Of a stretch of DNA of 64,000 bases, positions 24,517-51,101 are shown piece by piece. Location of the stretch: positions 120,729 to 184,728 of IMG/VR virus record IMGVR_UViG_3300047476_000982. One strand, given 5' to 3'. A model generated the notes under the pieces. It was not told where the DNA came from. It saw only the letters and a list, made by a program, of their open reading frames with translations, and made no database searches. Source of the stretch: a virus. The position numbers were made by a program, and so were the translations under genes. Every line of letters starts with the position of its first letter. The stretch's first letter is position 1.

Positions 24517-24800
24517 ATTGAGTACACTGCAGTTACCTGCTGTGGTTTGAACAACTCGCAAAGGGTTCTAATGTAAGCTCTCAAACCACGGAGTACTTGA
24601 GTTTCCGAAGCTAGAGCCACCAGTCAGGCTTGATCTGACACCTCTCCCGGTCGGAGTGGGAGGCTTCTACATTGAACTATGGCGGCGAGTATCTTGAAGG
24701 ATACTCAAACCTGCCTTGCGACAGTTTATTCGAGTTGTCTGCTCTAGATAGTTATAAAAACCGATTTAGTCGGCAAGGATTAGCCTATCTAGTCCCTTTG
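24492..24800 (-). ncRNA. unannotated ~310-nt structured RNA embedding a tRNA-like cloverleaf
   Basis: No ORF and GC-richer than the flanks. Ends pair over 9 bp (AAAGGGACT/AGTCCCTTT). Contains multiple stems, a pseudoknot and a GNRA hairpin, with ATATTTAT upstream and a terminator downstream. Confidence 0.7.
24615..24686 (-). ncRNA. atypical tRNA-like cloverleaf (Gly-like D arm, U73, 9-nt anticodon loop, non-TTC T loop)
   Basis: GCCGCCA-TA-GTTCAATGTAGAAG-C-CTCCC-ACTCCGACC-GGGAG-AGGT-GTCAG-ATCAAGC-CTGAC-TGGTGGC-T. Confidence 0.7.
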
Positions 24801-26366: not shown

Positions 26367-26367
26367 G

Positions 26368-26441
26368 TTGACCCTCTCGGGCTTGAACCGAGGACCCACA
26401 GATTATGAGTCTGTTGCTCTAACCAACTGAGCTAAGGATCA
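26368..26441 (-). tRNA. tRNA(CAT): Ile2 (lysidine) or elongator Met
   Basis: TGATCCT/AGGGTCA acceptor, ACAGA-CTCATAA-TCTGT anticodon arm; body resembles ileX-type tRNAs. Confidence 0.9.
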
Positions 26442-26453
26442 ATCTTGATTCAG

Positions 26454-26525
26454 AGCCCCCGCCCAGAATCGAACTGAGTTATCGTGATTACAAGTCACGC
26501 GCATCGCCAGCAATGCTTAAGGGGC
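26454..26525 (-). tRNA. tRNA-Thr(TGT)
   Basis: CGTGA-CTTGTAA-TCACG anticodon arm, CTCAG-TTCGATT-CTGGG T arm; A at position 8 and a 7:66 mismatch. Confidence 0.9.
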
Positions 26526-26527
26526 AT

Positions 26528-26554
26528 AAAAAAAGGAAGCCATTTCTGGCCTCC
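26528..26554 (-). terminator. rho-independent terminator closing the tmRNA/ncRNA unit
   Basis: Minus strand GGAGGCC-AGAAAT-GGCTTCC-TTTTTTT. Confidence 0.8.
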
Positions 26555-26897
26555 CTCTAAAAACATGATGGGAGTAACGATTACCCATAATCCCTGGACG
26601 GACCCCTTTTCACCCATAGTCCACAAAGATGATCAGTCTAAGTGTTAAGACTAGCTGGATTGACTACCAGCAACGCCTGCGGAGATCGTCCGAATTATCT
26701 TCAGCGTATCCAGAGCACTTTCAGGTTGCGCATTCTACCCTCAGTGGTGGTGGTTTTAACTCATCCGTCTGTGATACCCAGCTCAATAGCTTTTCAGCTA
26801 TCTACCAGTGCCTTAGCAGCTCTCAACCACTTATTCGGCCACAGTTTGATAAATGACTTAGCCTGGGACAGTGAACCAGGAGAACTGTGCTAAGTAC
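26528..26897 (-). ncRNA. unannotated ~370-nt ornate structured RNA immediately 3' of tmRNA
   Basis: About 50% GC by eye, with a 5' pseudoknot, many hairpins and repeated UGARA/GNRA loops. The short ORFs on both strands look spurious. Confidence 0.7.
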
Positions 26898-26902
26898 TTT
26901 AG

Positions 26903-27291
26903 TGGAGATAGTGGGATTCGAACCCACGTCTCCGAAAGAGACAATAATACTAACGTCTCACATGCTTAGTACTGCTTGCGCTGCACCGTAAGGGCTGACT
27001 TGTTATGGTCGGATCCACCACTTGATTTATTATATCGACATCAAGAAACTAACTCACAGTCCTTATTTAACGAGTCGATCGTGAATACTCGGAGTAGTTC
27101 TGTTCCTAGGTTACTCACCCGTAGTTGACTAGGCAGCTACTGCGTAGTCAGCACCAACGAATGCCATAGCATCTTCGAAGGTGAATGAAGATAATTCTTC
27201 AGCGTTTATTGTTTAGTATCTTCTAAGGCAGTATACTCAAATGCCTGCATGTAGTATTACCTCTACATCCGGATCGATACCGGTTATCCCC
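26903..27291 (-). ncRNA. ssrA: tmRNA, tag (A)AEELSSFTFEDAMAFVGADYAVAA
   Basis: GGGGATA/TATCTCC-A acceptor with G3.U70, GGTATCGA 5' motif, GTGGG-TTCGAAT-CCCAC T arm; tag ORF 27129-27203 after ATAAAC ends YAVAA-stop. Confidence 0.95.
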
Positions 27292-27928: not shown

Positions 27929-29119
27929 TTATTGTCCCTTACTAGGGAATTTAGTCCAACCATTAATCCAAGTAGGCATAGCTAATTCAGGAATAATAAC
28001 GTCAATCTCTTTATTACCTTTTCCTAAAGCTAGTGTTTTAAGTTGATCATTAGTTAGAATTGTAGTTGCTTTACTAATAAAATTTAAAGTTGGATTAAAT
28101 GCACCTACTGAATTGTTTTCGAATATAGATACACCGTCTTTTACTGCTTGAGCTGTTTCATTACTTTCTAAACTAAGTCCACCTTTCATCCAACCGTAGA
28201 TTGCACTATTCTTTACTGTGAATTGAGTAGCTCTTCTAAATCTTAAACCTAGATTGTGGTTCGCTAATGCGGTTTGATTATTAGGTCCAACTAATACCAT
28301 TCCAATTAATTTAGGATGCGTAAATGGTTGTGCCAGTGAGCCCACACCATCATTATCACATTCTACACCATTACCAGCATCACCGTTATCTACAAATAAA
28401 GGATCGCGTTTTGCAATACCATTTGTTACAGTTCCAGTATACCCAAAATCAAAGTCAAAATCATCATCTGCTGTAGCATAAGCATAAAGATTTTTTGGAG
28501 ATACAGTACCACCAAAAAATTCAAATGCATCGTCATTAGCGTAAATAGTTTGTACATTTTCAATTACTGTACCAGAACCTACACCACCTAAAGTAAGTGC
28601 ATTAATTTCTGAGTTAGGTAGTGCAGCAATACCGGCATACTCAATACGAACATACTTTAGTATACCACTATTATCTCCATCATCATTACCACCAAATGGA
28701 CGGCCAATACCGCCTTCAATAGTTGGTTCAGATGAACGATTAGTTTTTGCTTTACCTAATATTACAATTCCACCCCAGTCACCAGGAGACCTCTCGCCGG
28801 CGATTTTTCCTGAGGTAAAAATGATTGGTTTTGTTGCCGTACCTTCTGCAATAATCTTTGCACCTCTCTCAATGCACAAAGCACCTTTTTCTGCAATGTC
28901 ACTTTTGATTACAGTTCCAGGTTGAATAATTAACGTAGCGCCATCTTTAACATAAACGTATCCTTTTAAAGTCCATTCTTTATCAGAAGTAAGAGTTGTA
29001 GTTATTGTGATATTACCTGTAATTGTTTTGTCAGTAGGTACATTAATAGGCGCATCTATTTGTTCTTTTTTACAAGCGAATAAACCGATAATTACTAAAA
29101 ATAAAGTTAGCTTTTTCAT
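27929..29119 (-). CDS. surface lipoprotein, beta-helix-like, TBDR-associated
   Basis: Lipobox LFAC + KKE; GDWGGIVILG, YVRIEYAG, DDAFEFFGG motifs. Confidence 0.8.
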   Translation of the reverse strand: MKKLTLFLVIIGLFACKKEQIDAPINVPTDKTITGNITITTTLTSDKEWTLKGYVYVKDGATLIIQPGTVIKSDIAEKGALCIERGAKIIAEGTATKPIIFTSGKIAGERSPGDWGGIVILGKAKTNRSSEPTIEGGIGRPFGGNDDGDNSGILKYVRIEYAGIAALPNSEINALTLGGVGSGTVIENVQTIYANDDAFEFFGGTVSPKNLYAYATADDDFDFDFGYTGTVTNGIAKRDPLFVDNGDAGNGVECDNDGVGSLAQPFTHPKLIGMVLVGPNNQTALANHNLGLRFRRATQFTVKNSAIYGWMKGGLSLESNETAQAVKDGVSIFENNSVGAFNPTLNFISKATTILTNDQLKTLALGKGNKEIDVIIPELAMPTWINGWTKFPSKGQ

Positions 29120-31365
29120 AAATTCAAATTAAATGTTAATGAAATTGATTGTTCGTTATTTGTTTTAATTAAATTGCCCCTTGATTTTTGATAATAAACA
29201 GAAGGTTGGGCAAGTATATCACCTACTGCTAATTTTATTTCTCCTTTACCTACCTTACGTAAGAATACTAAATCTATAACATCTCTAGAGTTTTCAAATA
29301 TGTCATCGTATCCTTGAAAACCTACTGCTGATATTCTATCTCCAACTCTATTATAAGAAAGGTTGATTGTGTTTTTTCCTTTATGTAAATTCAATCCACC
29401 ATTTACAACATAATTAGATTGCCCTTGTAATTGTCTTTTTCTACCGTTAACAACTACTTCAGATTTAACTATAGAAGTATTAGTATAAGCATCTAACCAA
29501 TTAGTTATTTTTTTACGAAACTCTATTTCAAATCCAGCAACTAATGCTTGATCTGGATTCAAGTATGTTAGTAATAGATTTGATGGTACTGATCCATCTG
29601 CTACTATTTGTTCAATTGGCTTTTTAAAGTCTTTAATAAAGAAAGCTCCTGATATGTTTTCACTTTGTTTAGGATAGTATTCTAACTTAATATCAACGTT
29701 ATAAACATCTGTCTTTTGTAGATTGGGATTACCTAATAGTTGGGCATTACGTACAAAATCATAGTATGCAAAGTTAGCAACTTCTCTAAACTCAGGTCTT
29801 GCTAATGTTTTACTAGCAGATATTCTATACTTAAATCTATCCCATTCATAAGAAAAGTTTACTGAAGGTAAAAGGTCTAGATACTTTCTATTTACATTAA
29901 CTCTCGTACCACTAAAGTCTGCGGTTTGTACATTAAACAAATTGTATTCTGTTCTTAAACCTGCATTTACTTTCCAACCATTTAATTCGCCTTCATATAA
30001 AGCATATGCACTTGCTAAATCAAAATCTGCAGAATACTTGTCAGTATTATTAGTAATTTCGTCTAACATATCTTCAGAAGTATATCTAAAGATTCTAGCT
30101 TTAAAAGTTCTGTATTTTTTAATATAGCTTGAACCTATTTTAAAACCACCTAATTGTTTATTCACGCCGGCATTTAAACCATTTTCATCCATGTCACTCC
30201 AAAAACGATAAGTATCTCTCCATGCAATTGCATAAGGTTCATTAACTCCTAATGACTTAGTTATTGGATTAATTCTATAGTCTGGTTGTTTTCTAATCAT
30301 TAAATTATATCCTACATTAAAATCAAAAGTTTTAATCTTGCCATCAAATTGAGAATTGATTAATGTTTTAACTATATTATTAGACGCATTACTTCTTACA
30401 TCTTGAACATTATCGTAATTCTCGCCTATACGAGTTAAATAAGATTGTTCTACTTGATGATTAAATAAAGTTTTTAAACTATATCTATTTTTTCCTGTAT
30501 AAGTTACATTAAAAAGCCCATTTAACAATTGAACTCTACTAAATGAAGTATCTCTGTATTTGTATGCTAATTCTGTTGATGATTGATAATCTTGTCTATC
30601 AATATAATTTAGTGCGTAAGTATTTCTTGCAGTTGAACTAAATAATACGTTCCACTTATTTCTTTTTAATCCAAAAGAAAGCGATCCATTTAAGTTAGGA
30701 ATAGATTTAAATTCTTGAACAATTGGAGACTTTATGAGACTTGTGTAATTCTTTTTCTCTGTGTTTGTGCTTACGCGATAAATGTAAGTGGATGGAAATT
30801 GAGTGGGGAAGGTCGTATAATCCACCAATTTGAAATTTTGGGAAGTTGAAACGGCCCCGTAATTCACTCCGAGGCCTAATGAGAAAAAATCATTAGATAC
30901 ATCTTTTGTAGTTACTTGAACAATTCCTCCTGCAAAATCACCAGGCAAATTTGCTGTAGCTGACTTTGCTACTATGATATTATCTATGAGTCCTGATGGA
31001 ATAATATCAAATGAAAATGCTCTACGATCAGGTTCTGTTGATGGTAAAATAGTTTTATTCAGCATAGCAGAATTATATCTATCTGCTAAACCTCTAACTA
31101 ATACAAACTTATCGTTCTGTATAGTAACACCATTAACTCTTTTAAGTGCATCACCTACACTACGATCAGGAGTTTTCTTTATAAACTCAACAGAAAGCCC
31201 ATCAGATATAACAGAACTATTTCTGATGCTATTAATCACTGCAATGTTAGATTCTTTCTTTTGAACAGAACGAATCGTAATATTATCTAGTTTTTGATTG
31301 AATAAAGTGTCTTGGGAAAAGGATAAAACTGGAAATAGTAAAAATAGTAACGCTTTTAATTTCAT
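29116..31365 (-). CDS. TonB-dependent outer-membrane receptor (compact, start MKLKALL)
   Basis: Signal peptide; plug DALKRVNGVT...VRGLADRYN...FDIIP...PGDFAGG; barrel motifs ARPEFRE, GNPNL, QGQSNY. Confidence 0.9.
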   Translation of the reverse strand: MKLKALLFLLFPVLSFSQDTLFNQKLDNITIRSVQKKESNIAVINSIRNSSVISDGLSVEFIKKTPDRSVGDALKRVNGVTIQNDKFVLVRGLADRYNSAMLNKTILPSTEPDRRAFSFDIIPSGLIDNIIVAKSATANLPGDFAGGIVQVTTKDVSNDFFSLGLGVNYGAVSTSQNFKLVDYTTFPTQFPSTYIYRVSTNTEKKNYTSLIKSPIVQEFKSIPNLNGSLSFGLKRNKWNVLFSSTARNTYALNYIDRQDYQSSTELAYKYRDTSFSRVQLLNGLFNVTYTGKNRYSLKTLFNHQVEQSYLTRIGENYDNVQDVRSNASNNIVKTLINSQFDGKIKTFDFNVGYNLMIRKQPDYRINPITKSLGVNEPYAIAWRDTYRFWSDMDENGLNAGVNKQLGGFKIGSSYIKKYRTFKARIFRYTSEDMLDEITNNTDKYSADFDLASAYALYEGELNGWKVNAGLRTEYNLFNVQTADFSGTRVNVNRKYLDLLPSVNFSYEWDRFKYRISASKTLARPEFREVANFAYYDFVRNAQLLGNPNLQKTDVYNVDIKLEYYPKQSENISGAFFIKDFKKPIEQIVADGSVPSNLLLTYLNPDQALVAGFEIEFRKKITNWLDAYTNTSIVKSEVVVNGRKRQLQGQSNYVVNGGLNLHKGKNTINLSYNRVGDRISAVGFQGYDDIFENSRDVIDLVFLRKVGKGEIKLAVGDILAQPSVYYQKSRGNLIKTNNEQSISLTFNLNL

Positions 31366-31439
31366 ATTGTGTGTTGTCTTTAAATAGATATTTTGAGCTA
31401 GTTGCCCAGGCAATATCTTTGTATTATCAAATTATTAAA

Positions 31440-32567
31440 TTAATTAGAAGAATGAGATAGATTTATGTCTCCTAAAATACAGTACTTAATGTTTTGAGTA
31501 ACATTAGAAGTCACAACATTAATTGTAAATGAGGCTACTGGGTTAATTGTAGAATAATTGGATCTGTTTATTAAATCATAATTAGCTGAAGTAAACCATA
31601 ATACTTGATTTATAGGTCTTAATCCACTAAGGTGGGCTGCTACTAGGTAAGCATCACCTAAATCTAATATACCATTTCTATTCACATCAGCTGCTTTCCA
31701 CTGTTTAGTTCCAGTCATTACTAGACCTTGAGCCGTATTAGATGGTATGTTTATATTTTTAACTTCACCCCAAATTAAATCAAAGTCAGTTGATGTTATA
31801 CCTTGAATTGTTAATGAAGGATATATTTTGTAAGTAGTATTATTAGCTGGTACTGTAAATGAGTATGTTCCATTTGTAGCTACAGTTTTAGTTTCAACTA
31901 AATTTTCACTCGTTCCAACTATTCTATATAAACTAAGTGTAGGATATGAAATTAAAGTTGGTACTGACACTATTCCACTTATTGTAGCTAAAGGTACTAC
32001 TATACCTAATTCAGTAGGTTGTAATGAATAAGCTGATTGTGAAGGTCTTTTCCATACAACTGCCATACCATCACCCCCACCATACTCTTGCATTCGGGCG
32101 ATGAATGTATATGATGTTCCTGCAACTAAACTAACAGAACCATATTGATAGCCACTCATACCGTGACCTCCATAAAATGAAGTTACCAAAGCACCATTTA
32201 TAAGCAAATCAGAACCGTCATCAGAATTTATTCCAAATGTATAGATTCCTGTTTCTGTAGGAGTAAATACTCCACTCACTTCAACAGCATAAAAATCACC
32301 ATTATTGGGAATACTAGCACCTGCATTTGATAGTGTTGTCCACGTAGTAAAATTTAAACACGTAGTTGCATTCATAGTACCACTCCACCATAATGTAGTG
32401 TTTGAGTATGATGTATTAGTTAAAATATCCATCTGAGCTTTATTATTGGCAAAATTGGGATATTGTGAAGTATTACCATTACCAGCATGTGTACGAAACA
32501 CTTTTACATTTAGTGTTTGTCCAAATGTTAAAATAGGAAATAATAATATAACTAAGACTCTGATCAT
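31440..32567 (-). CDS. secreted PA14/GLEYA-like domain + dockerin-like protein
   Basis: FGINSDDGSDLLING, QEYGGGDG; ADVNRNGILDLGDA, GDINLSHS. Confidence 0.75.
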   Translation of the reverse strand: MIRVLVILLFPILTFGQTLNVKVFRTHAGNGNTSQYPNFANNKAQMDILTNTSYSNTTLWWSGTMNATTCLNFTTWTTLSNAGASIPNNGDFYAVEVSGVFTPTETGIYTFGINSDDGSDLLINGALVTSFYGGHGMSGYQYGSVSLVAGTSYTFIARMQEYGGGDGMAVVWKRPSQSAYSLQPTELGIVVPLATISGIVSVPTLISYPTLSLYRIVGTSENLVETKTVATNGTYSFTVPANNTTYKIYPSLTIQGITSTDFDLIWGEVKNINIPSNTAQGLVMTGTKQWKAADVNRNGILDLGDAYLVAAHLSGLRPINQVLWFTSANYDLINRSNYSTINPVASFTINVVTSNVTQNIKYCILGDINLSHSSN

Positions 32568-34868: not shown

Positions 34869-36764
34869 TTAAAGTATTAAAAAGGGTTTAGTAATAATTT
34901 TCTTTTGATCCGTCATTGATAAATAGTAGTTACCTTGTCTTAAGTTAGTAGCATCTATTTTATAATTTGCTGTTAATGCATATTCATTGCTTGATAGTTT
35001 ACCTAGATCTTTAACTGGGCGTCCAGTTACATCAAATATCATAGCATTCATATTCATGTTATTTCTAGGGAAAGTAACTACTAATTCAAACATACCGTTA
35101 TTTGGATTAGGACGAATTGATGTAACTACCTCTTCATCGCTACCATTATAATATCCAGGTATTCTTCTACTTGATAATGCTACTATATCAGACTGAAGCA
35201 CGATATTAAATCTATCTCCATTTTGATCACCTGCATCCATTAATTTACGTACTTTAATATAGCTAGTAATATCATTGTTACCTATAGGAGAAAATTTAAG
35301 TTTAAACGGCATATAATTGCCAGTTATATATCCTACGTTTTGATTATTCATTCCACCAAAACGAATAGTTCCAGTTTGTGCATCATGGTTTACATATTGT
35401 AACCACGGACCTTGAATATTAGATACAATCTCTTCAAATTTTACTTTAGTTCTATCATAAGTCATTTCAAATTGAAGTGATGCATTTTGAAGTCCATTCG
35501 TACTAACATTCATTGGAACATATAGTGGTTCTCCTACATTAGCAAATGTGTTAGGTATGTTAACATTTAAGTTGCCTATAGTATTATAAGCCACTATTTC
35601 TTGGTTGTTAGCATCAAATACAGGTGATGAGTGGCTTCTATTTACGTCACCTACAATTGCATATTTAAGATTAACTACAAGATTAGCTGTACCTATACTG
35701 TCATAAACAAAGTCCATTCTATCTAAGAATGCAGGCCAAGATGTCCATTGATTTTCACCTAATACTAAATTATCATATTCAGTAGCAGTAAATACTTTAA
35801 TTAATCCTGCCGTATCGATTTGTTTTAAACCAGCTACAGAAGCATAAATACCATAAGCGTCTCCACCATCTAATCCAGCACTCTTATTAATATCAGCTTG
35901 TAAGTAACTCAATCCTGATTTTAAGTATTGTCTTGTGTATACTTGATTTACATCTGTATTAACAAATTCATCATACACTTTAGCACCATCAGTTATTGTT
36001 ACAGCGTTATCTCTAATTGTAGTTAATTCAGCTTTAGGGAATAATAATTGTATTTTATATTTTGTATTTTGTTCAATATTATCTAATGTGTAAGTACCAT
36101 CAGTAGCAATAGCAACACTTGAAGCAACGGTACCATCAACTGCATCTATTGCTAATACTGTAGGTTTAGAAGTCATATTAGCAGCCAACCATACTTTACC
36201 TGAAATGGTTAAGTTACCTTTTAAGAATACGGACATGCTCTTATTAGTAAGATTAGCTACATTATCTCCTATTGTATTACCATCTTGAGTGAATAATCTA
36301 GCCCAGTTAATTGTAATAGAATCAGATACGAAGTTTGCTTCTACTGAGTTAATTTTATACTTGTTGTGTATAATATAAGCTTGAGATCCAATTTGATTAC
36401 CACTAGCTAAGATTAAATAGTTACGAGCTACAGTCCAAGCAGTGTCAGATACATAAGTATAATTACCTGCGGTATAGCCTGAGTATTTAGAATTATCAAA
36501 TTGCTTATAGTCAATATAAGGAGTTTGAGTTGCAAATGCTACATCAACAGTAGTTGCAATGTGAGTTAAAAGTCTTTTCTTATATTGAAAGTCAACTTGA
36601 AATGTACGAACATCTTTACTAGCAATAGGTTGATAATACCAGGCAACATCTAAAGTGTCACCTCTTTTAACAGTTGCGAGCTGTTGAAAGTGTCCGATTG
36701 AAGGTTGTTGGGCAAAGGAAGCATAACTAATTAATACTGCAAGCAGCGTTAATAGTTTTTTCAT
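34869..36764 (-). CDS. cohesin/dockerin-like protein with T9SS C-terminal sorting domain
   Basis: Cohesin-like VGEPLYVPMNV...LQFEMTYD; ADINKSAGLDGGDA; CTD SIRPNPNNG...IFDVTGR...GNYYLSM...KPFLIL. Confidence 0.8.
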   Translation of the reverse strand: MKKLLTLLAVLISYASFAQQPSIGHFQQLATVKRGDTLDVAWYYQPIASKDVRTFQVDFQYKKRLLTHIATTVDVAFATQTPYIDYKQFDNSKYSGYTAGNYTYVSDTAWTVARNYLILASGNQIGSQAYIIHNKYKINSVEANFVSDSITINWARLFTQDGNTIGDNVANLTNKSMSVFLKGNLTISGKVWLAANMTSKPTVLAIDAVDGTVASSVAIATDGTYTLDNIEQNTKYKIQLLFPKAELTTIRDNAVTITDGAKVYDEFVNTDVNQVYTRQYLKSGLSYLQADINKSAGLDGGDAYGIYASVAGLKQIDTAGLIKVFTATEYDNLVLGENQWTSWPAFLDRMDFVYDSIGTANLVVNLKYAIVGDVNRSHSSPVFDANNQEIVAYNTIGNLNVNIPNTFANVGEPLYVPMNVSTNGLQNASLQFEMTYDRTKVKFEEIVSNIQGPWLQYVNHDAQTGTIRFGGMNNQNVGYITGNYMPFKLKFSPIGNNDITSYIKVRKLMDAGDQNGDRFNIVLQSDIVALSSRRIPGYYNGSDEEVVTSIRPNPNNGMFELVVTFPRNNMNMNAMIFDVTGRPVKDLGKLSSNEYALTANYKIDATNLRQGNYYLSMTDQKKIITKPFLIL

Positions 36765-49174: not shown

Positions 49175-50797
49175 TTACATTCCCATAGTCATATCCATCA
49201 TAGGATCTGACTTGTCATTTTTTTCTTTCTTTTCAAATACAACAGATTCAGTTGTCAAAATAGTTCCTGCTACTGATGTTGCATTTTTAAGTGCTGTGAT
49301 AACAACTTTAGCTGGATCAATAATGCCTGATTCAAATGCATCTACCATTTTATGATTCTTTGCATCGTATACTTGTCCAGTGCTAGGGATATTTTCAAAC
49401 CAATTCTCAATACCTGCATTAGACAATATCTTTTTGAATGGCGCTTGTAAAGCATTACGAACAATATCTCTAGCGATTGCTACGTTACTATTGCTTTCTG
49501 CTCTATGATTAAGTGCTACTCTATAAAGTGTTGCACCACCACCAGGTACAATACCATCAGCAAGAGCGGCTTTAGTTGCAAATAATGCGTCTTCTACACG
49601 GTCTTTCTTCTCTCTAATTTCAATATCACTATTACCGCCTACAGAAATAATTGCAACACCACCAATCAACTTACCAAGTCTTTCTTGTAACTTTTCTTTC
49701 TCATAGAATGATGTAGCTTTTTCAATCTGCTCTTTTATTTCTTCTGCTCTAACTTCAATTGCTTTTTCATCACCTTTACCATCAATTATAGTAGTCTCCT
49801 CTTTAGATACAGTTACAAGTCTTGTTGTACCAAGATATTGAGCAAGTTGTTGTGTAGACAATTTATCAAGCTTCAAACCTTTATCTTTAGAAATAACTTG
49901 TCCACCTGTCAAGATAGCAATATCTTCTAAGATTAATGTTTTACGCTCACCAAAGTCTGGTGCTTTAACTGCACAAACTTGTACAATACCACGCATTTTA
50001 TTTACAATCAATGTAGCAAGAGCTTCATCACCAATGTCTTCAGCAATAATCAACAAAGGTCTATTCTCTGAATTTGCTTTAGTTAATACTTGCAATAACT
50101 CTTGTGCAGTTGAAATACGTCCATCATACAAAAGAATATATGGATTATCAAGCACAGATTGCATTGTTGTATTGTTAGTTACAAAATAAGGTGATTTGTA
50201 ACCACGATCAAATTGCATACCTTCAACAATCTCTAATGTAGTTTCACCAGTCTTAGATTCTTCAATAGTAACTACACCTTCACGACCAACTTTATCAAGT
50301 GCTTCAGCAATTAAGTTACCAACTTCAGGATCATTATTACCTGAAATAGTTGCAACTTGTTTGATTTGATCTTCTGAAGAGATTTCTGTTGCTAATCCTT
50401 TAATTTCTTTTACTACTTCATTAACAATATTGTCAATTTCATTCTTAATTTCAACAGCGTTGACTCCTTGACGAATTTCTTTAAGACCTTGCTTAATCAT
50501 TTCAGTGGCAAGAAGTGTAGATGTTGTTGTACCATCACCTGCTTCATTTGCAGATTTAATACTAACTTGCTTAACAAGTTGTGCACCAAGATCTTCAATG
50601 TCATCTTCAAGCTTGTGAAATGCTTTAGCTACTGTTACACCGTCTTTTGTAACTTTAACTTCGCCATTTTGTTCACGAATTAATACTGTACGTCCACCAG
50701 GACCTAATGTTGATGATACTGATTGATTTAGTTTCTCTATACCGGAAAGTAACTTTTCTTTAAGCTCTGTTCCAAAAACGTTTTTTGTTGTACTCAT
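49175..50797 (-). CDS. groEL: chaperonin GroEL (start MSTTKN)
   Basis: [46 protein letters not shown]. Confidence 0.97.
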
Positions 50798-50810
50798 AGT
50801 CTTTTTTATT

Positions 50811-51101
50811 TTATTCAATAACACCTAAAATGTCTGATTCTTTACAAATGAAATAGTCTTGTCCTTCAAATACGATTCTTTGAGAACCAAGTTTAGGGAT
50901 TAATACTACTTCTCCTTCTTCAAGAGTTGACATAACTAGTTTGTCTGTGTTGTAATTGTAAACATTAGATGTTGCTACTACTGTTCCCATCTCAGGTCTT
51001 TCTTTACCAAGATCTGGAATAATGATGTTACCGAATGTTTCTTCTTCGCTTTCGATTGGCTTTAATACTATATAGCCATTTAGTGGGGTTATTTTATTCA
51101 T
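50811..51101 (-). CDS. groES: co-chaperonin GroES
   Basis: ITPLNGYIVL, FGNIIIPD..KERPEMGTVVA, ESDILGVIE. Confidence 0.93.
   Translation of the reverse strand: MNKITPLNGYIVLKPIESEEETFGNIIIPDLGKERPEMGTVVATSNVYNYNTDKLVMSTLEEGEVVLIPKLGSQRIVFEGQDYFICKESDILGVIE

What the first reader, a model, noticed from the sequence alone, without database searches (positions are those of the whole stretch)
26528..26897. Unannotated ~370-nt ornate ncRNA co-transcribed directly behind tmRNA
Seen on the minus strand, starting ~5 nt after the tmRNA 3' end: a pseudoknot (ACTTAG/CTAAGT 26890-95/26856-61 crossed by CACAGTT/AACTGTG 26883-89/26840-46, enclosing CCTGG/CCAGG). Then a GTGGTT/AACCAC multiloop with ATAGCT-GAAA-AGCTAT, nested CTGGA..CGGAC/GTCCG-TCCAG long-range pairs, hairpins GCTGG/CCAGC, AGTCT/AGACT and ATGGG/CCCAT, five UGARA-type loops, and a terminator. 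Known: large ornate RNAs such as GOLLD and ROOL occur in phages near tRNAs with unknown function. Inference: a new or divergent class of large phage RNA.
Basis: partly seen in the sequence, partly recalled or inferred. Interest (0 to 1): 0.78.

Follow-up and report, generated by a model that had tools for sequence, protein, structure and literature searches.

The report
Enlarged manA-like RNA behind phage tmRNA
The gap between a phage's tmRNA gene and its tRNA genes encodes a real, evolutionarily maintained folded RNA of about 290-370 bases that is an enlarged, uncatalogued cousin of the 'manA' RNA (recently reported to build RNA-only cages), not a wholly new class of RNA.

Summary
The flagged stretch (26528-26897, minus strand) is a genuine structured non-coding RNA. 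I collected 23 distinct homologues from freshwater phage and metagenome contigs. A consensus fold of 79 pairs is 91.8% paired, 31 pairs carry compensatory changes, and 0 of 500 shuffles reached those values. No reading frame is conserved.

The conserved core is 26848-26561, followed by an intrinsic terminator (26554-26528). The 5' "pseudoknot" module (26897-26850) occurs in only three or four relatives, with identical sequence, so it cannot be tested.

No Rfam family reaches its threshold. However, all 16 relatives tested hit manA (RF01745) below threshold (18-31 bits against a cut-off of 55.2). They share its closing helix, its GAAUAA/UAAGG junction, its GNRA hairpin and its 3' hairpin. About 190 nt of new helices are inserted where manA has one short hairpin.

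A loop-loop contact (ACGAU 26689-26685 with AUCGU 26581-26577) covaries. Two apical loops are palindromic. Both point to self-assembly, as reported for manA.

In relatives the RNA always lies in same-strand tmRNA/tRNA clusters of large phages whose host is probably a member of Bacteroidota. The scan had already flagged this family on other DNA. Its function remains unknown.

The parts
26900..27291 (-). Phage tmRNA gene directly upstream. The tag is AEELSSFTFEDAMAFVGADYAVAA. The 3' end reads ACUA, so CCA is not encoded.
   Evidence: ARAGORN; Rfam RF00023 at 69.5 bits; sequence.
26850..26897 (-). Optional 5' extension: hairpin ACUUAGC/GCUAAGU enclosing CCUGG/CCAGG. CACAGUU is complementary to the P1 region.
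   Evidence: Present only in the window, L001 and L012/L127, with identical sequence. In L012 it follows the promoter-like motif, so it is part of that transcript. Fold z = -1.48. No covariation test is possible.
26842..26848 (-). P1 5' strand (CAAACUG). It pairs with CA(U)GUUU at 26567-26561 and closes the whole RNA.
   Evidence: A C-G to A-U exchange occurs in L144, L125, L008 and L009. The L007 group has a perfect 7-bp AUAACUG/CAGUUAU. Several relatives have a mismatch or a bulge. This is the manA closing helix in the cmscan alignments.
26770..26841 (-). manA-like 5' domain. It contains GUG/CAC, GCC-GAAUAAG-[hairpin AGUGGUU/AGCUGCU with loop L3]-CUAA-GGC, and the helix CUGGU/GCUGG enclosing the GAAA-capped hairpin AUAGCU/AGCUAU (26801-26786).
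   Evidence: Covariation: 4 of 7 pairs in the hairpin, 5 of 6 in the GAAA hairpin, 2 of 3 in GCC/GGC. Aligned to manA positions about 17-97. Model R1.
26597..26769 (-). Central domain of about 170-190 nt, inserted in the manA P8 position. It is closed by GACGGAU (26769-26763) / GUCCGUC (26603-26597) and ACC/GGU. It holds the following arms:
- CACU/AGUG plus GGGU/ACCU, with apical UGCGCA (26732-26727)
- ACGCU/GGCGU, with a 25-nt loop
- GCUGG/CCAGC
- UAGUC/GACUA plus CACUUAGA/UCUUUGUG, with loop CUGAUCA (26636-26630)
   Evidence: Compensatory changes occur in CACU/AGUG (3 of 4 pairs), GCUGG/CCAGC (1 pair, 9 sequences) and UAGUC/GACUA (3 of 5 pairs). P8 and ACC/GGU are invariant, so they are consistent with pairing but untested.
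26685..26689 (-). ACGAU in the 25-nt loop of the ACGCU/GGCGU hairpin. It is the partner of the 3' hairpin loop (a kissing contact or pseudoknot).
   Evidence: Pair types are CG 13 / AU 10 and UA 17 / CG 6. There are four sequence states, and the tree needs at least 3 changes.
26568..26588 (-). 3' hairpin P9: AUGGG/CCCAU with loop UAAUCGUUACU. AUCGU (26581-26577) pairs with 26689-26685.
   Evidence: Covariation. This is the best-aligned part of the manA model, GugGGUAuacAguAAUCCcaC.
26561..26567 (-). P1 3' strand (CAUGUUU).
26528..26554 (-). Intrinsic terminator: GGAGGCCA-GAAA-UGGCUUCC followed by U7. tRNA-Thr begins 2 nt further on, at 26525.
   Evidence: Sequence; MFE hairpin. Most relatives carry terminators of different sequence at the same place. 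The L007 group has a tRNA 20 nt downstream instead.
26367..26525 (-). tRNA-Thr(UGU) and tRNA-Met(CAU) immediately downstream on the same strand.
   Evidence: ARAGORN; Rfam.

Best explanation
**What it is.** This is a free-standing, stable, structured non-coding RNA of a large freshwater phage, probably one that infects Bacteroidota. It belongs to an uncatalogued, enlarged branch of the manA RNA lineage.

**How it is made.** In this phage it is transcribed as part of the tmRNA - RNA - tRNA-Thr - tRNA-Met unit. Its 5' end is set free by 3' maturation of the tmRNA, which lacks an encoded CCA. Its 3' end is defined by its own terminator hairpin and/or by RNase P cleavage of tRNA-Thr. These steps are inferred.

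**How it folds.** It adopts the manA core: closing helix P1, the GAAUAA/UAAGG junction, a GAAA-capped hairpin and the 3' hairpin P9. The place of manA's short P8 hairpin is taken by a junction of four helical arms of about 190 nt. This is shown by covariation and by the alignments to the manA model.

**How it most likely works (inferred).** As reported for manA in vitro, copies probably bind one another through three kinds of contact:
- the covarying contact between the loop of the ACGCU/GGCGU hairpin and the P9 loop, which corresponds to manA L8-L9 (intermolecular in the cryo-EM structure)
- two palindromic apical loops, UGCGCA and UGAUCA
- the GAAA tetraloop

These would give a homo-oligomeric RNA particle that acts in trans during infection, presumably in connection with the translation or tRNA machinery beside which it is always encoded.
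For: **Real and non-coding**
- 23 distinct homologues.
- The tested structure is 91.8% paired against 84.7% in shuffles. 31 pairs have compensatory changes, and 0 of 500 shuffles reach this. Slid controls give 32-45% paired.
- Every frame has stops, there is no 3-nt periodicity (46/54/45, p = 0.60), and indels are mostly 1-2 nt. There is no Pfam hit.

**Discrete unit**
- L001 is 98% identical across the RNA, while its tmRNA and its downstream flank diverge.
- Most relatives have a promoter-like TATATTTATATA(C/T)AC motif upstream and a terminator downstream.

**Relation to manA**
- RF01745 hits lie exactly on the RNA in 16 of 16 relatives tested. They score 18.3-31.3 bits, span model positions 1-192, and reach E = 1.9e-6 in a 421-nt search.
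- In the other direction, the best hit of R1 in a 3.2-kb P-SSM2 locus lies inside its 181.6-bit manA.

**Loop-loop contact.** It has four sequence states, all complementary.

**Palindromic loops.** Each is present in 20 of 23 sequences. Three different palindromes (UGCGCA, UGUACA, UGGCCA) occur at one apex.

**manA self-assembly.** Assembly through intermolecular L8-L9', L5-L7' and L3-L8' kissing loops and an L6 GNRA contact is reported in preprint 10.64898/2026.07.01.735769.

**Genomic context.** A same-strand tmRNA lies 7-1335 nt upstream in about 19 loci, and tRNAs lie nearby. Where the RNA abuts a tmRNA or tRNA there is no promoter motif.

**RNA libraries.** RNA-library contigs from four studies cover the core, and one exact 331-nt contig bridges the tmRNA/RNA junction.
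Against: - The window's own copy gives no manA hit even at E <= 10, and no relative reaches the Rfam cut-off. Homology to manA rests on consistent weak hits and shared motifs.
- Covariation cannot tell an intramolecular pseudoknot from an intermolecular contact.
- 6-nt palindromes are common by chance: about 4.6 are expected in 300 nt. In three relatives the palindrome is merely a stem plus a 4-nt loop. L007 has neither palindromic loop.
- My mapping of the manA loop numbers (L6 = GNRA, L8, L9) is inferred from the Rfam structure and the preprint's text, not from its figures.
- The manA cages were seen in vitro only.
- The RNA-library evidence comes from assembled contigs, which can contain DNA carry-over and show no ends.
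- No partner protein or target is known.
Confidence: 0.55

Rival explanations
1. It is a monomeric scaffold or decoy RNA. It folds on its own, with ACGAU/AUCGU forming an intramolecular pseudoknot. It then binds a host or phage protein such as a ribonuclease, an anticodon nuclease or other defence protein, a ribosomal protein or SmpB. In this way it protects or tunes the phage's tmRNA and tRNAs.
For: - The RNA always lies in tmRNA/tRNA clusters.
- Long invariant single-stranded stretches (GGUGAAAAGGGG, GAGUUAAAACC, UUGAGAG) look like binding or tertiary-contact surfaces.
- The covarying pair is equally compatible with an intramolecular pseudoknot.
- The OLE RNA precedent for protein docking is described in PMC12286853.
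Against: - No conserved neighbouring protein gene was found across the loci.
- This reading does not explain why palindromic apical loops are retained.
- The nearest known relative (manA) assembles without protein.
Confidence: 0.2
2. It is a cis-acting leader or attenuator. The fold senses a ligand or a tRNA and controls read-through of its terminator into tRNA-Thr and tRNA-Met. This would match the original proposal that manA is a riboswitch candidate.
For: - manA was proposed as a cis-regulatory or riboswitch candidate (PMC2864571).
- In the window the terminator U-tract ends 2 nt before tRNA-Thr, with no room for a promoter. The downstream tRNAs therefore need read-through.
Against: - In most relatives the terminator is followed by a new promoter-like motif and unrelated ORFs, not by tRNAs.
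- The L007 group has no terminator at all.
- In L131 the order is RNA - tRNA - tmRNA.
- The terminator does not overlap any conserved helix, so there is no visible alternative (anti-terminator) pairing conserved across the family.
Confidence: 0.1
3. The conservation reflects something other than an RNA function, for example a protein-coding gene on either strand, a mobile-element remnant or a DNA-level site.
For: - Plus-strand ORFs of 75 and 83 aa overlap the stretch.
- The element is 98% identical in L001 while its flanks are unrelated, which could suggest mobility.
Against: - Stops occur in all six frames in every homologue. The longest antisense frame varies from 40 to 99 aa. There is no codon periodicity, and frameshifting indels are present. 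There is no Pfam hit.
- Substitutions are compensatory in base pairs.
- No repeats or integrase-type neighbours were seen.
Confidence: 0.03

Closest known systems
manA RNA motif (Rfam RF01745; Weinberg et al. 2010, PMC2864571; cryo-EM preprint 10.64898/2026.07.01.735769)
   Same: - A closing helix joins the 5' and 3' ends.
- The junction motif UG-RYC-GAAUAA-[hairpin]-UAAGG-Y is shared.
- A GNRA-capped hairpin sits inside the next helix.
- The 3' hairpin GGGUAAUC..UACUCCC has an 11-12-nt loop.
- That loop is complementary to the loop of the preceding hairpin, as in manA L8-L9. In P-SSM2 the matching pair is CUGUA/UACAG, by eye.
- Both are phage-borne.
- Sub-threshold cmscan hits occur in 16 of 16 relatives, and there is a reciprocal R1 hit.
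   Different: - No member reaches the gathering score, and the window's copy gives no hit at all.
- The core is about 290 nt, against about 190 nt for manA.
- The two hairpins flanking the GNRA hairpin (P5, P7) are absent.
- The short P8 hairpin is replaced by a domain of about 190 nt with four helical arms and long invariant joining strands.
- It is a gene of its own (promoter plus terminator, or flanked by tmRNA/tRNA) in phages whose host is probably a member of Bacteroidota. manA lies in the 5' UTRs of metabolic genes of cyanophages; in P-SSM2 it sits before purL.
GOLLD and ROOL RNAs (Rfam; cryo-EM in PMC12286853)
   Same: They are encoded by phages and prophages, often beside tRNA islands. 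They are non-coding, ornate and of unknown function. They form RNA-only homo-oligomeric nanocages through a few loop-mediated contacts. The genomic setting and the suspected mode of action are the same.
   Different: There is no sequence or structure match (no hit at E <= 10). GOLLD and ROOL are much larger, at about 580-800+ nt.
Retroviral dimerisation initiation site (HIV-1 DIS) kissing loop (from general knowledge)
   Same: An apical loop carries a 6-nt palindrome flanked by purines (here AGAA-UGCGCA-A). A variant palindrome with a changed central pair occurs in a relative (UGUACA in L009).
   Different: The two are unrelated in sequence and biology. This is an analogy for the mechanism only. 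Dimerisation was not tested here.

Membership tests
manA (RF01745) | Score at or above the Rfam gathering cut-off (55.2 bits) | tested here: not met
   The window gives no hit at gathering or at E <= 10. Relatives score 18.3-31.3 bits.
manA (RF01745) | Closing helix pairing the 5' and 3' ends of the motif | tested here: met
   CAAACUG (26848-26842) pairs with CA(U)GUUU (26567-26561). Relatives show a C-G to A-U exchange and a perfect 7-bp variant. Some relatives have a mismatch or a bulge.
manA (RF01745) | 5' junction UG-aC-UGAAUAA-hairpin-UAAgGu | tested here: met
   UG-GCC-GAAUAAG-hairpin-CUAAGGC is invariant or covarying in all 23 sequences. It aligns to the model. R1 recovers the same motif in the P-SSM2 manA.
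manA (RF01745) | GNRA-capped hairpin (model 'cugcccgaaagggcag') inside the next helix | tested here: met
   AUAGCU-GAAA-AGCUAU (26801-26786). The loop is invariant and 5 of 6 pairs are compensatory.
manA (RF01745) | Two further hairpins flanking the GNRA hairpin (model 'cagGUGGUGcug' and the 18-nt element) | tested here: not met
   CUGGU/GCUGG encloses only the GAAA hairpin in all 23 sequences. cmscan leaves these model positions unmatched.
manA (RF01745) | Short P8 stem-loop (about 45 nt) before the 3' hairpin | tested here: not met
   It is replaced by a multi-helix domain of about 170-190 nt, closed by GACGGAU/GUCCGUC. cmscan treats it as an insertion of more than 150 nt.
manA (RF01745) | 3' hairpin GugGGUAuacAguAAUCCcaC | tested here: met
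   AUGGGUAAUCGUUACUCCCAU (26588-26568). It covaries and is the highest-confidence part of the cmscan alignments.
manA (RF01745) | Location in the 5' UTR of protein-coding (metabolic) genes | tested here: not met
   The RNA lies between tmRNA and tRNA genes, or between its own promoter-like motif and terminator. For comparison, the P-SSM2 manA lies before purL.
manA (RF01745) | RNA-only homo-oligomer or cage formation | not testable with these tools
   Only indirect signs are available: a covarying loop-loop contact and palindromic loops.
GOLLD / ROOL | Match to the Rfam covariance models | tested here: not met
   No hit at E <= 10 in a 381-nt or a 1.1-kb search.
GOLLD / ROOL | Phage-encoded and beside tRNA genes | tested here: met
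   The literature basis is PMC12286853.
RNase P RNA / group I intron | Match to the Rfam models; P4-type core in the canonical order | tested here: not met
   No hits. The ACAGACGGAU/GUCCGUC resemblance to P4 is in the wrong order, and the helix is the manA P8 equivalent.

The most novel reading that the evidence does not exclude
Enlarged manA-type RNAs would form a third lineage, beside GOLLD and ROOL, of self-assembling RNA particles encoded in phage tRNA islands. Here the ~190-nt domain inserted in manA's P8 position supplies new valencies: two palindromic loops plus the L8-L9-type contact. Copies made from the tmRNA/tRNA transcript would assemble into an RNA-only shell or lattice inside infected Bacteroidota cells. 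That particle would sequester or shield components of translation (tRNAs, tmRNA, ribosomal subunits) from host defence.
Probability: 0.12. Interest if true: 0.85.

Novelty: new variant of a known kind. Interest (0 to 1): 0.55.

Why it matters
manA was long filed as a small cis-regulatory riboswitch candidate of cyanophages. A 2026 preprint reports that it builds RNA-only cages. This family shows that the same core exists in a much larger, free-standing form. That form is expressed from tmRNA/tRNA operons of unrelated large phages whose host is probably a member of Bacteroidota, the same genomic niche as the cage-forming GOLLD and ROOL RNAs.

That points to a general, still unexplained role for self-assembling RNAs in the way phages take over translation. 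It also offers a compact test case of about 290 nt, with a covarying loop-loop contact and palindromic loops that can be probed by mutation. In addition, it marks a gap in Rfam: these RNAs go unannotated in phage genomes.

Tried and rejected
**Readings considered and dropped**
- A circularly permuted RNase P: ACAGACGGAU and GUCCGUC resemble the two P4 strands. Dropped because Rfam gives no hit, the order is wrong, and the helix maps to manA P8.
Rejected against the homologues.
- CUCUGG/CCAGGG as a long-range helix. Too many mismatches in the relatives.

**Searches that found nothing useful**
- blastn of the region against 50,697 phage records found only tRNA matches.
- The loose pattern GGTGAAAAGGGNNCCG fetched more than 100 loci, all chance except the known ones. 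L005 and L011 are chance matches.
- The scan of genome contigs gave 5 chance matches and none was confirmed by R1. So no copy with this exact 19-mer was found in the species-representative prokaryote genomes.
- The closest cultured relative, Flavobacterium phage immuto (DNA polymerase 57% identical), has no hit to R1 or RF01745. The tool warns that an empty answer proves little.
- No further manA-like RNA lies in the window's tRNA cluster.
- A search for variants of the 5' extension found only L001 and L012.
- Clustering of neighbouring ORFs gave no conserved partner.

**Technical limits**
I used a 76-nt model of the 5' domain instead.
- The window has no whole genome on hand.

**RNA-library data**
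- Parts of the stretch without contig cover are not interpreted.
- One X15 contig joins 26800 back to 26569. This does not correspond to the RNA's ends, so I do not read it as a circle.
Full report
**What is in the window**

On the minus strand lie a tmRNA gene (26900-27291), the flagged stretch, tRNA-Thr (26453-26525) and tRNA-Met (26367-26441). Further tRNAs follow downstream. The tmRNA 3' end reads ACUA, so CCA is not encoded.

No Rfam family reaches its gathering score on 26528-26899. None appears even at E <= 10 when only 381 or 1,101 bases are searched. The minimum-free-energy fold is only mildly better than shuffles (z = -1.93). Thermodynamics alone would therefore not establish an RNA.

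**Homologues**

- An IMG/VR contig (L001) carries the stretch at about 98% identity. Its tmRNA body and T-arm diverge and its downstream flank is unrelated. The conserved block begins right after the tmRNA and ends at the terminator.
- Two conserved words (GGGTGAAAAGGGGTCCG and ACAGACGGRTGAG...AAACCAC) retrieved nine further viral contigs.
- One metagenome scan retrieved 32 loci. A profile search confirmed 34 copies in all, of which 23 are distinct and full-length.
- All come from freshwater or lake samples. Viral contigs reach 175-183 kb. Public runs holding the stretch are labelled freshwater or aquatic.
- A scan of species-representative prokaryote genomes gave only chance matches.

**Boundaries**

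- The family-wide core runs from CAAACUG (26848) to CAUGUUU (26561).
- Most relatives have a conserved promoter-like motif, TATATTTATATA(C/T)AC, immediately upstream of the core. In L012 it lies upstream of the 5' module. They also have an intrinsic terminator of varying sequence downstream.
- In the window, L001, L009, L151 and L128 the RNA abuts the tmRNA 3' end without that motif. In L139 it abuts tRNA-Glu. In the L007 group a tRNA-Met follows 20 nt downstream instead of a terminator.
- The window's terminator is GGAGGCCA-GAAA-UGGCUUCC plus U7 (26554-26528), and tRNA-Thr starts 2 nt later.
- The RNA is therefore a unit of its own. It is expressed either alone or inside tmRNA/tRNA polycistrons, from which the tRNA-processing enzymes would release it. 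That last step is inference.

**Structure**

RNAalifold on 9 and then on 23 sequences gave the same helices, with 23-24 compensatory pairs. A hand-curated structure was counted on alignment A3:

| Measure | Observed | Control |
|---|---|---|
| Pairs tested | 79 | - |
| Cells paired | 91.8% | 84.7% in shuffles; 32-45% when partners are slid by 1-3 columns |
| Pairs with compensatory change | 31 | 0 of 500 shuffles reach this |
| Cells with compensatory change | 146 | 53 in shuffles |

In window coordinates:
- **P1:** 26848-26842 with 26567-26561.
- **5' domain:** GUG/CAC, then GCC-GAAUAAG-[AGUGGUU/AGCUGCU]-CUAA-GGC, then CUGGU/GCUGG enclosing AUAGCU-GAAA-AGCUAU.
- **Long-range helices:** GACGGAU (26769-26763) with GUCCGUC (26603-26597), and ACC/GGU. 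These are invariant, so they are untested. They close the central domain.
- **Central domain, four arms:** CACU/AGUG plus GGGU/ACCU; ACGCU/GGCGU with a 25-nt loop; GCUGG/CCAGC; and UAGUC/GACUA plus CACUUAGA/UCUUUGUG.
- **3' hairpin:** AUGGG/CCCAT (26588-26568).

An all-against-all column scan found a further non-nested helix. ACGAU (26689-26685), in the 25-nt loop, pairs with AUCGU (26581-26577), in the 3' hairpin loop. The four observed states are ACGAU/AUCGU, AUGAU/AUCAU, CUGAU/AUCAG and CUGAU/GUCAG. All are complementary, and the tree needs at least three changes.

**Not coding**

- Every one of the six frames has at least 2 stops in each homologue. The longest antisense frame ranges from 40 to 99 aa.
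- Variable columns show no 3-nt periodicity (46/54/45, p = 0.60), and indels are mostly 1-2 nt.

- Confirmed: the GAAA hairpin, GCTGG/CCAGC, ATGGG/CCCAT and the terminator.
- Contradicted: GTGGTT/AACCAC, CGGAC/GTCCG, CTGGA/TCCAG and AGTCT/AGACT. In each, one strand changes or pairs elsewhere with covariation.
- Untestable: the 5' module. Its own fold is ordinary (z = -1.48).
- A 7-nt complement between a 48-nt stretch and a 300-nt stretch is expected about once by chance. The CACAGTT/AACTGTG helix would also displace the conserved P1. I treat it as unproven.

**Relation to manA**

A note from earlier in this scan suggested manA, and I tested that here.
- At permissive thresholds RF01745 hits the RNA in every relative tested (16 of 16). 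The hits are on the right strand, span model positions 1-192 and score 18.3-31.3 bits against a cut-off of 55.2. E reaches 1.8e-4 in a 41-kb search and 1.9e-6 in a 421-nt search.
- The window's own copy gives no hit.
- The alignments anchor on four elements: P1; UG-RYC-GAAUAA-[hairpin]-UAAGG; the GNRA hairpin (clearest in the L007 group); and the 3' hairpin GGGUAAUC..UACUCCC. More than 150 nt are treated as an insertion.
- In the other direction, a 76-nt covariance model of the 5' domain (R1) finds exactly one copy per locus. Its best hit in a 3.2-kb locus of Prochlorococcus phage P-SSM2 falls inside that phage's bona fide manA. That manA scores 181.6 bits with RF01745; the R1 hit scores 12.4 bits at E = 0.032.
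- In P-SSM2 manA lies in front of purL. This is the cis context described in the literature.
- The family therefore shares the manA core but fails the membership threshold. It lacks two manA hairpins, replaces the short P8 hairpin with a domain of about 190 nt, and has a different genomic role.
- One relative (L007) also carries a small 141-nt manA-like RNA right after tRNA-Met (23.5 bits). The window does not.

**Clues to mechanism**

- The preprint reports that manA RNAs form decamers and a 60-mer cage. These are held by intermolecular kissing loops (L5-L7', L8-L9', L3-L8') and an L6 GNRA-receptor contact.
- Counting helices on the Rfam structure makes L6 the GNRA loop, L8 the loop of the hairpin before the 3' hairpin, and L9 the 3' hairpin loop. 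This numbering is my inference, since the figures are not held.
- On that numbering, the covarying contact found here corresponds to L8-L9. In the P-SSM2 manA the same two loops are complementary by eye (CUGUA/UACAG).
- Two apical loops are palindromic. One is UGCGCA (UGUACA in L009; UGGCCA in L008, L151 and L128), present in 20 of 23 sequences. The other is UGAUCA in a 7-nt loop, also in 20 of 23.
- This is suggestive only. Palindromic 6-mers are common by chance, some of these are simply a stem plus a 4-nt loop, and L007 has neither.
- GOLLD and ROOL are also encoded beside tRNA islands in phages and form RNA-only nanocages (PMC12286853). That gives a precedent for the setting.

**Expression**

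- Six metatranscriptome runs hold parts of the stretch.
- Contigs from four runs of four different studies cover the core. In one run an exact 331-nt contig spans 26850-27180. It bridges the tmRNA 3' end and the 5' module.
- These are assembled contigs from runs chosen by this very stretch. They are consistent with transcription and co-transcription but do not prove either.

**Phage and host**

- The window encodes family A DNA polymerase, a DnaB-type helicase, thymidylate synthase, a ribonucleotide-reductase-like protein and a GroEL-type chaperonin. It also encodes a TonB-dependent-receptor-like barrel and a protein with a type IX secretion sorting domain.
- The polymerase is 57% identical to that of Flavobacterium phage immuto.
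- A relative also has a protein with a type IX secretion sorting domain next to the RNA.
- The host is therefore probably a freshwater member of Bacteroidota.
- Neither R1 nor RF01745 finds a copy of the RNA in phage immuto.
- No neighbouring protein is consistently linked to the RNA.

**Verdict**

The feature is real, and its coordinates are right. The reading "novel class" should be replaced by [quoted passage not shown]. The same family, and sister enlarged manA-like RNAs, were already flagged by this scan on other genomes. Self-assembly is the best-supported mode of action but is inferred. The biological role is unknown.

Noticed in passing
window 26900-27291 (-): The phage tmRNA encodes an unusually long 24-residue tag (AEELSSFTFEDAMAFVGADYAVAA). 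Its 3' end is ACUA rather than ACCA, so CCA must be added after processing. In L001 the 5' part with the tag is identical, but the pseudoknot region has a ~70-nt insertion and the T-arm differs. The gene is therefore mosaic.
   Followed up: partly
window 24615-24686 (-): A sixth tRNA-like gene is found by Rfam (35 bits) but is not called by ARAGORN.
   Followed up: no
window 29116-31413, 31440-32567, 34869-36764 (-): The phage encodes three unusual proteins: a 765-aa TonB-dependent-receptor-like protein (Plug plus outer-membrane barrel), a PA14-domain protein, and a 631-aa protein with a type IX secretion C-terminal sorting domain. This is odd cargo for a phage and points to a Bacteroidota host.
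   Followed up: partly
window 49175-50824 (-): There is a phage-encoded GroEL-type chaperonin (Cpn60_TCP1, E = 1e-61). The related Flavobacterium phage immuto has a GroES next to its DNA polymerase.
   Followed up: no
L007:1728-1868 (+): A second, small (141-nt) manA-like RNA lies directly after tRNA-Met in the same tRNA cluster as the enlarged one (RF01745 at 23.5 bits, E = 6e-4 in a 651-nt search). Some of these phages therefore carry both forms.
   Followed up: partly
L003, L006, L012, L125, L129, L134, L144 and others, about 5-15 nt upstream of the RNA and again after its terminator: The motif TATATTTATATA(C/T)AC recurs and looks like the promoter consensus of these phages. It is not enriched in the window (15 near-matches against 14.6 expected).
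   Followed up: partly
window 26800 / 26569: One metatranscriptome contig (run X15) joins 26800 back to 26569. In RNA sense, the base just after the 3' hairpin is followed by the GAAA hairpin. The joint does not match the RNA's ends. It could be an assembly chimera between relatives, a tandem arrangement in a relative, or a template switch.
   Followed up: no
window 26528-26525: The terminator U-tract ends only 2 nt before tRNA-Thr, with no room for a promoter. tRNA-Thr and tRNA-Met must therefore depend on read-through of the terminator or on a promoter inside the RNA gene.
   Followed up: no
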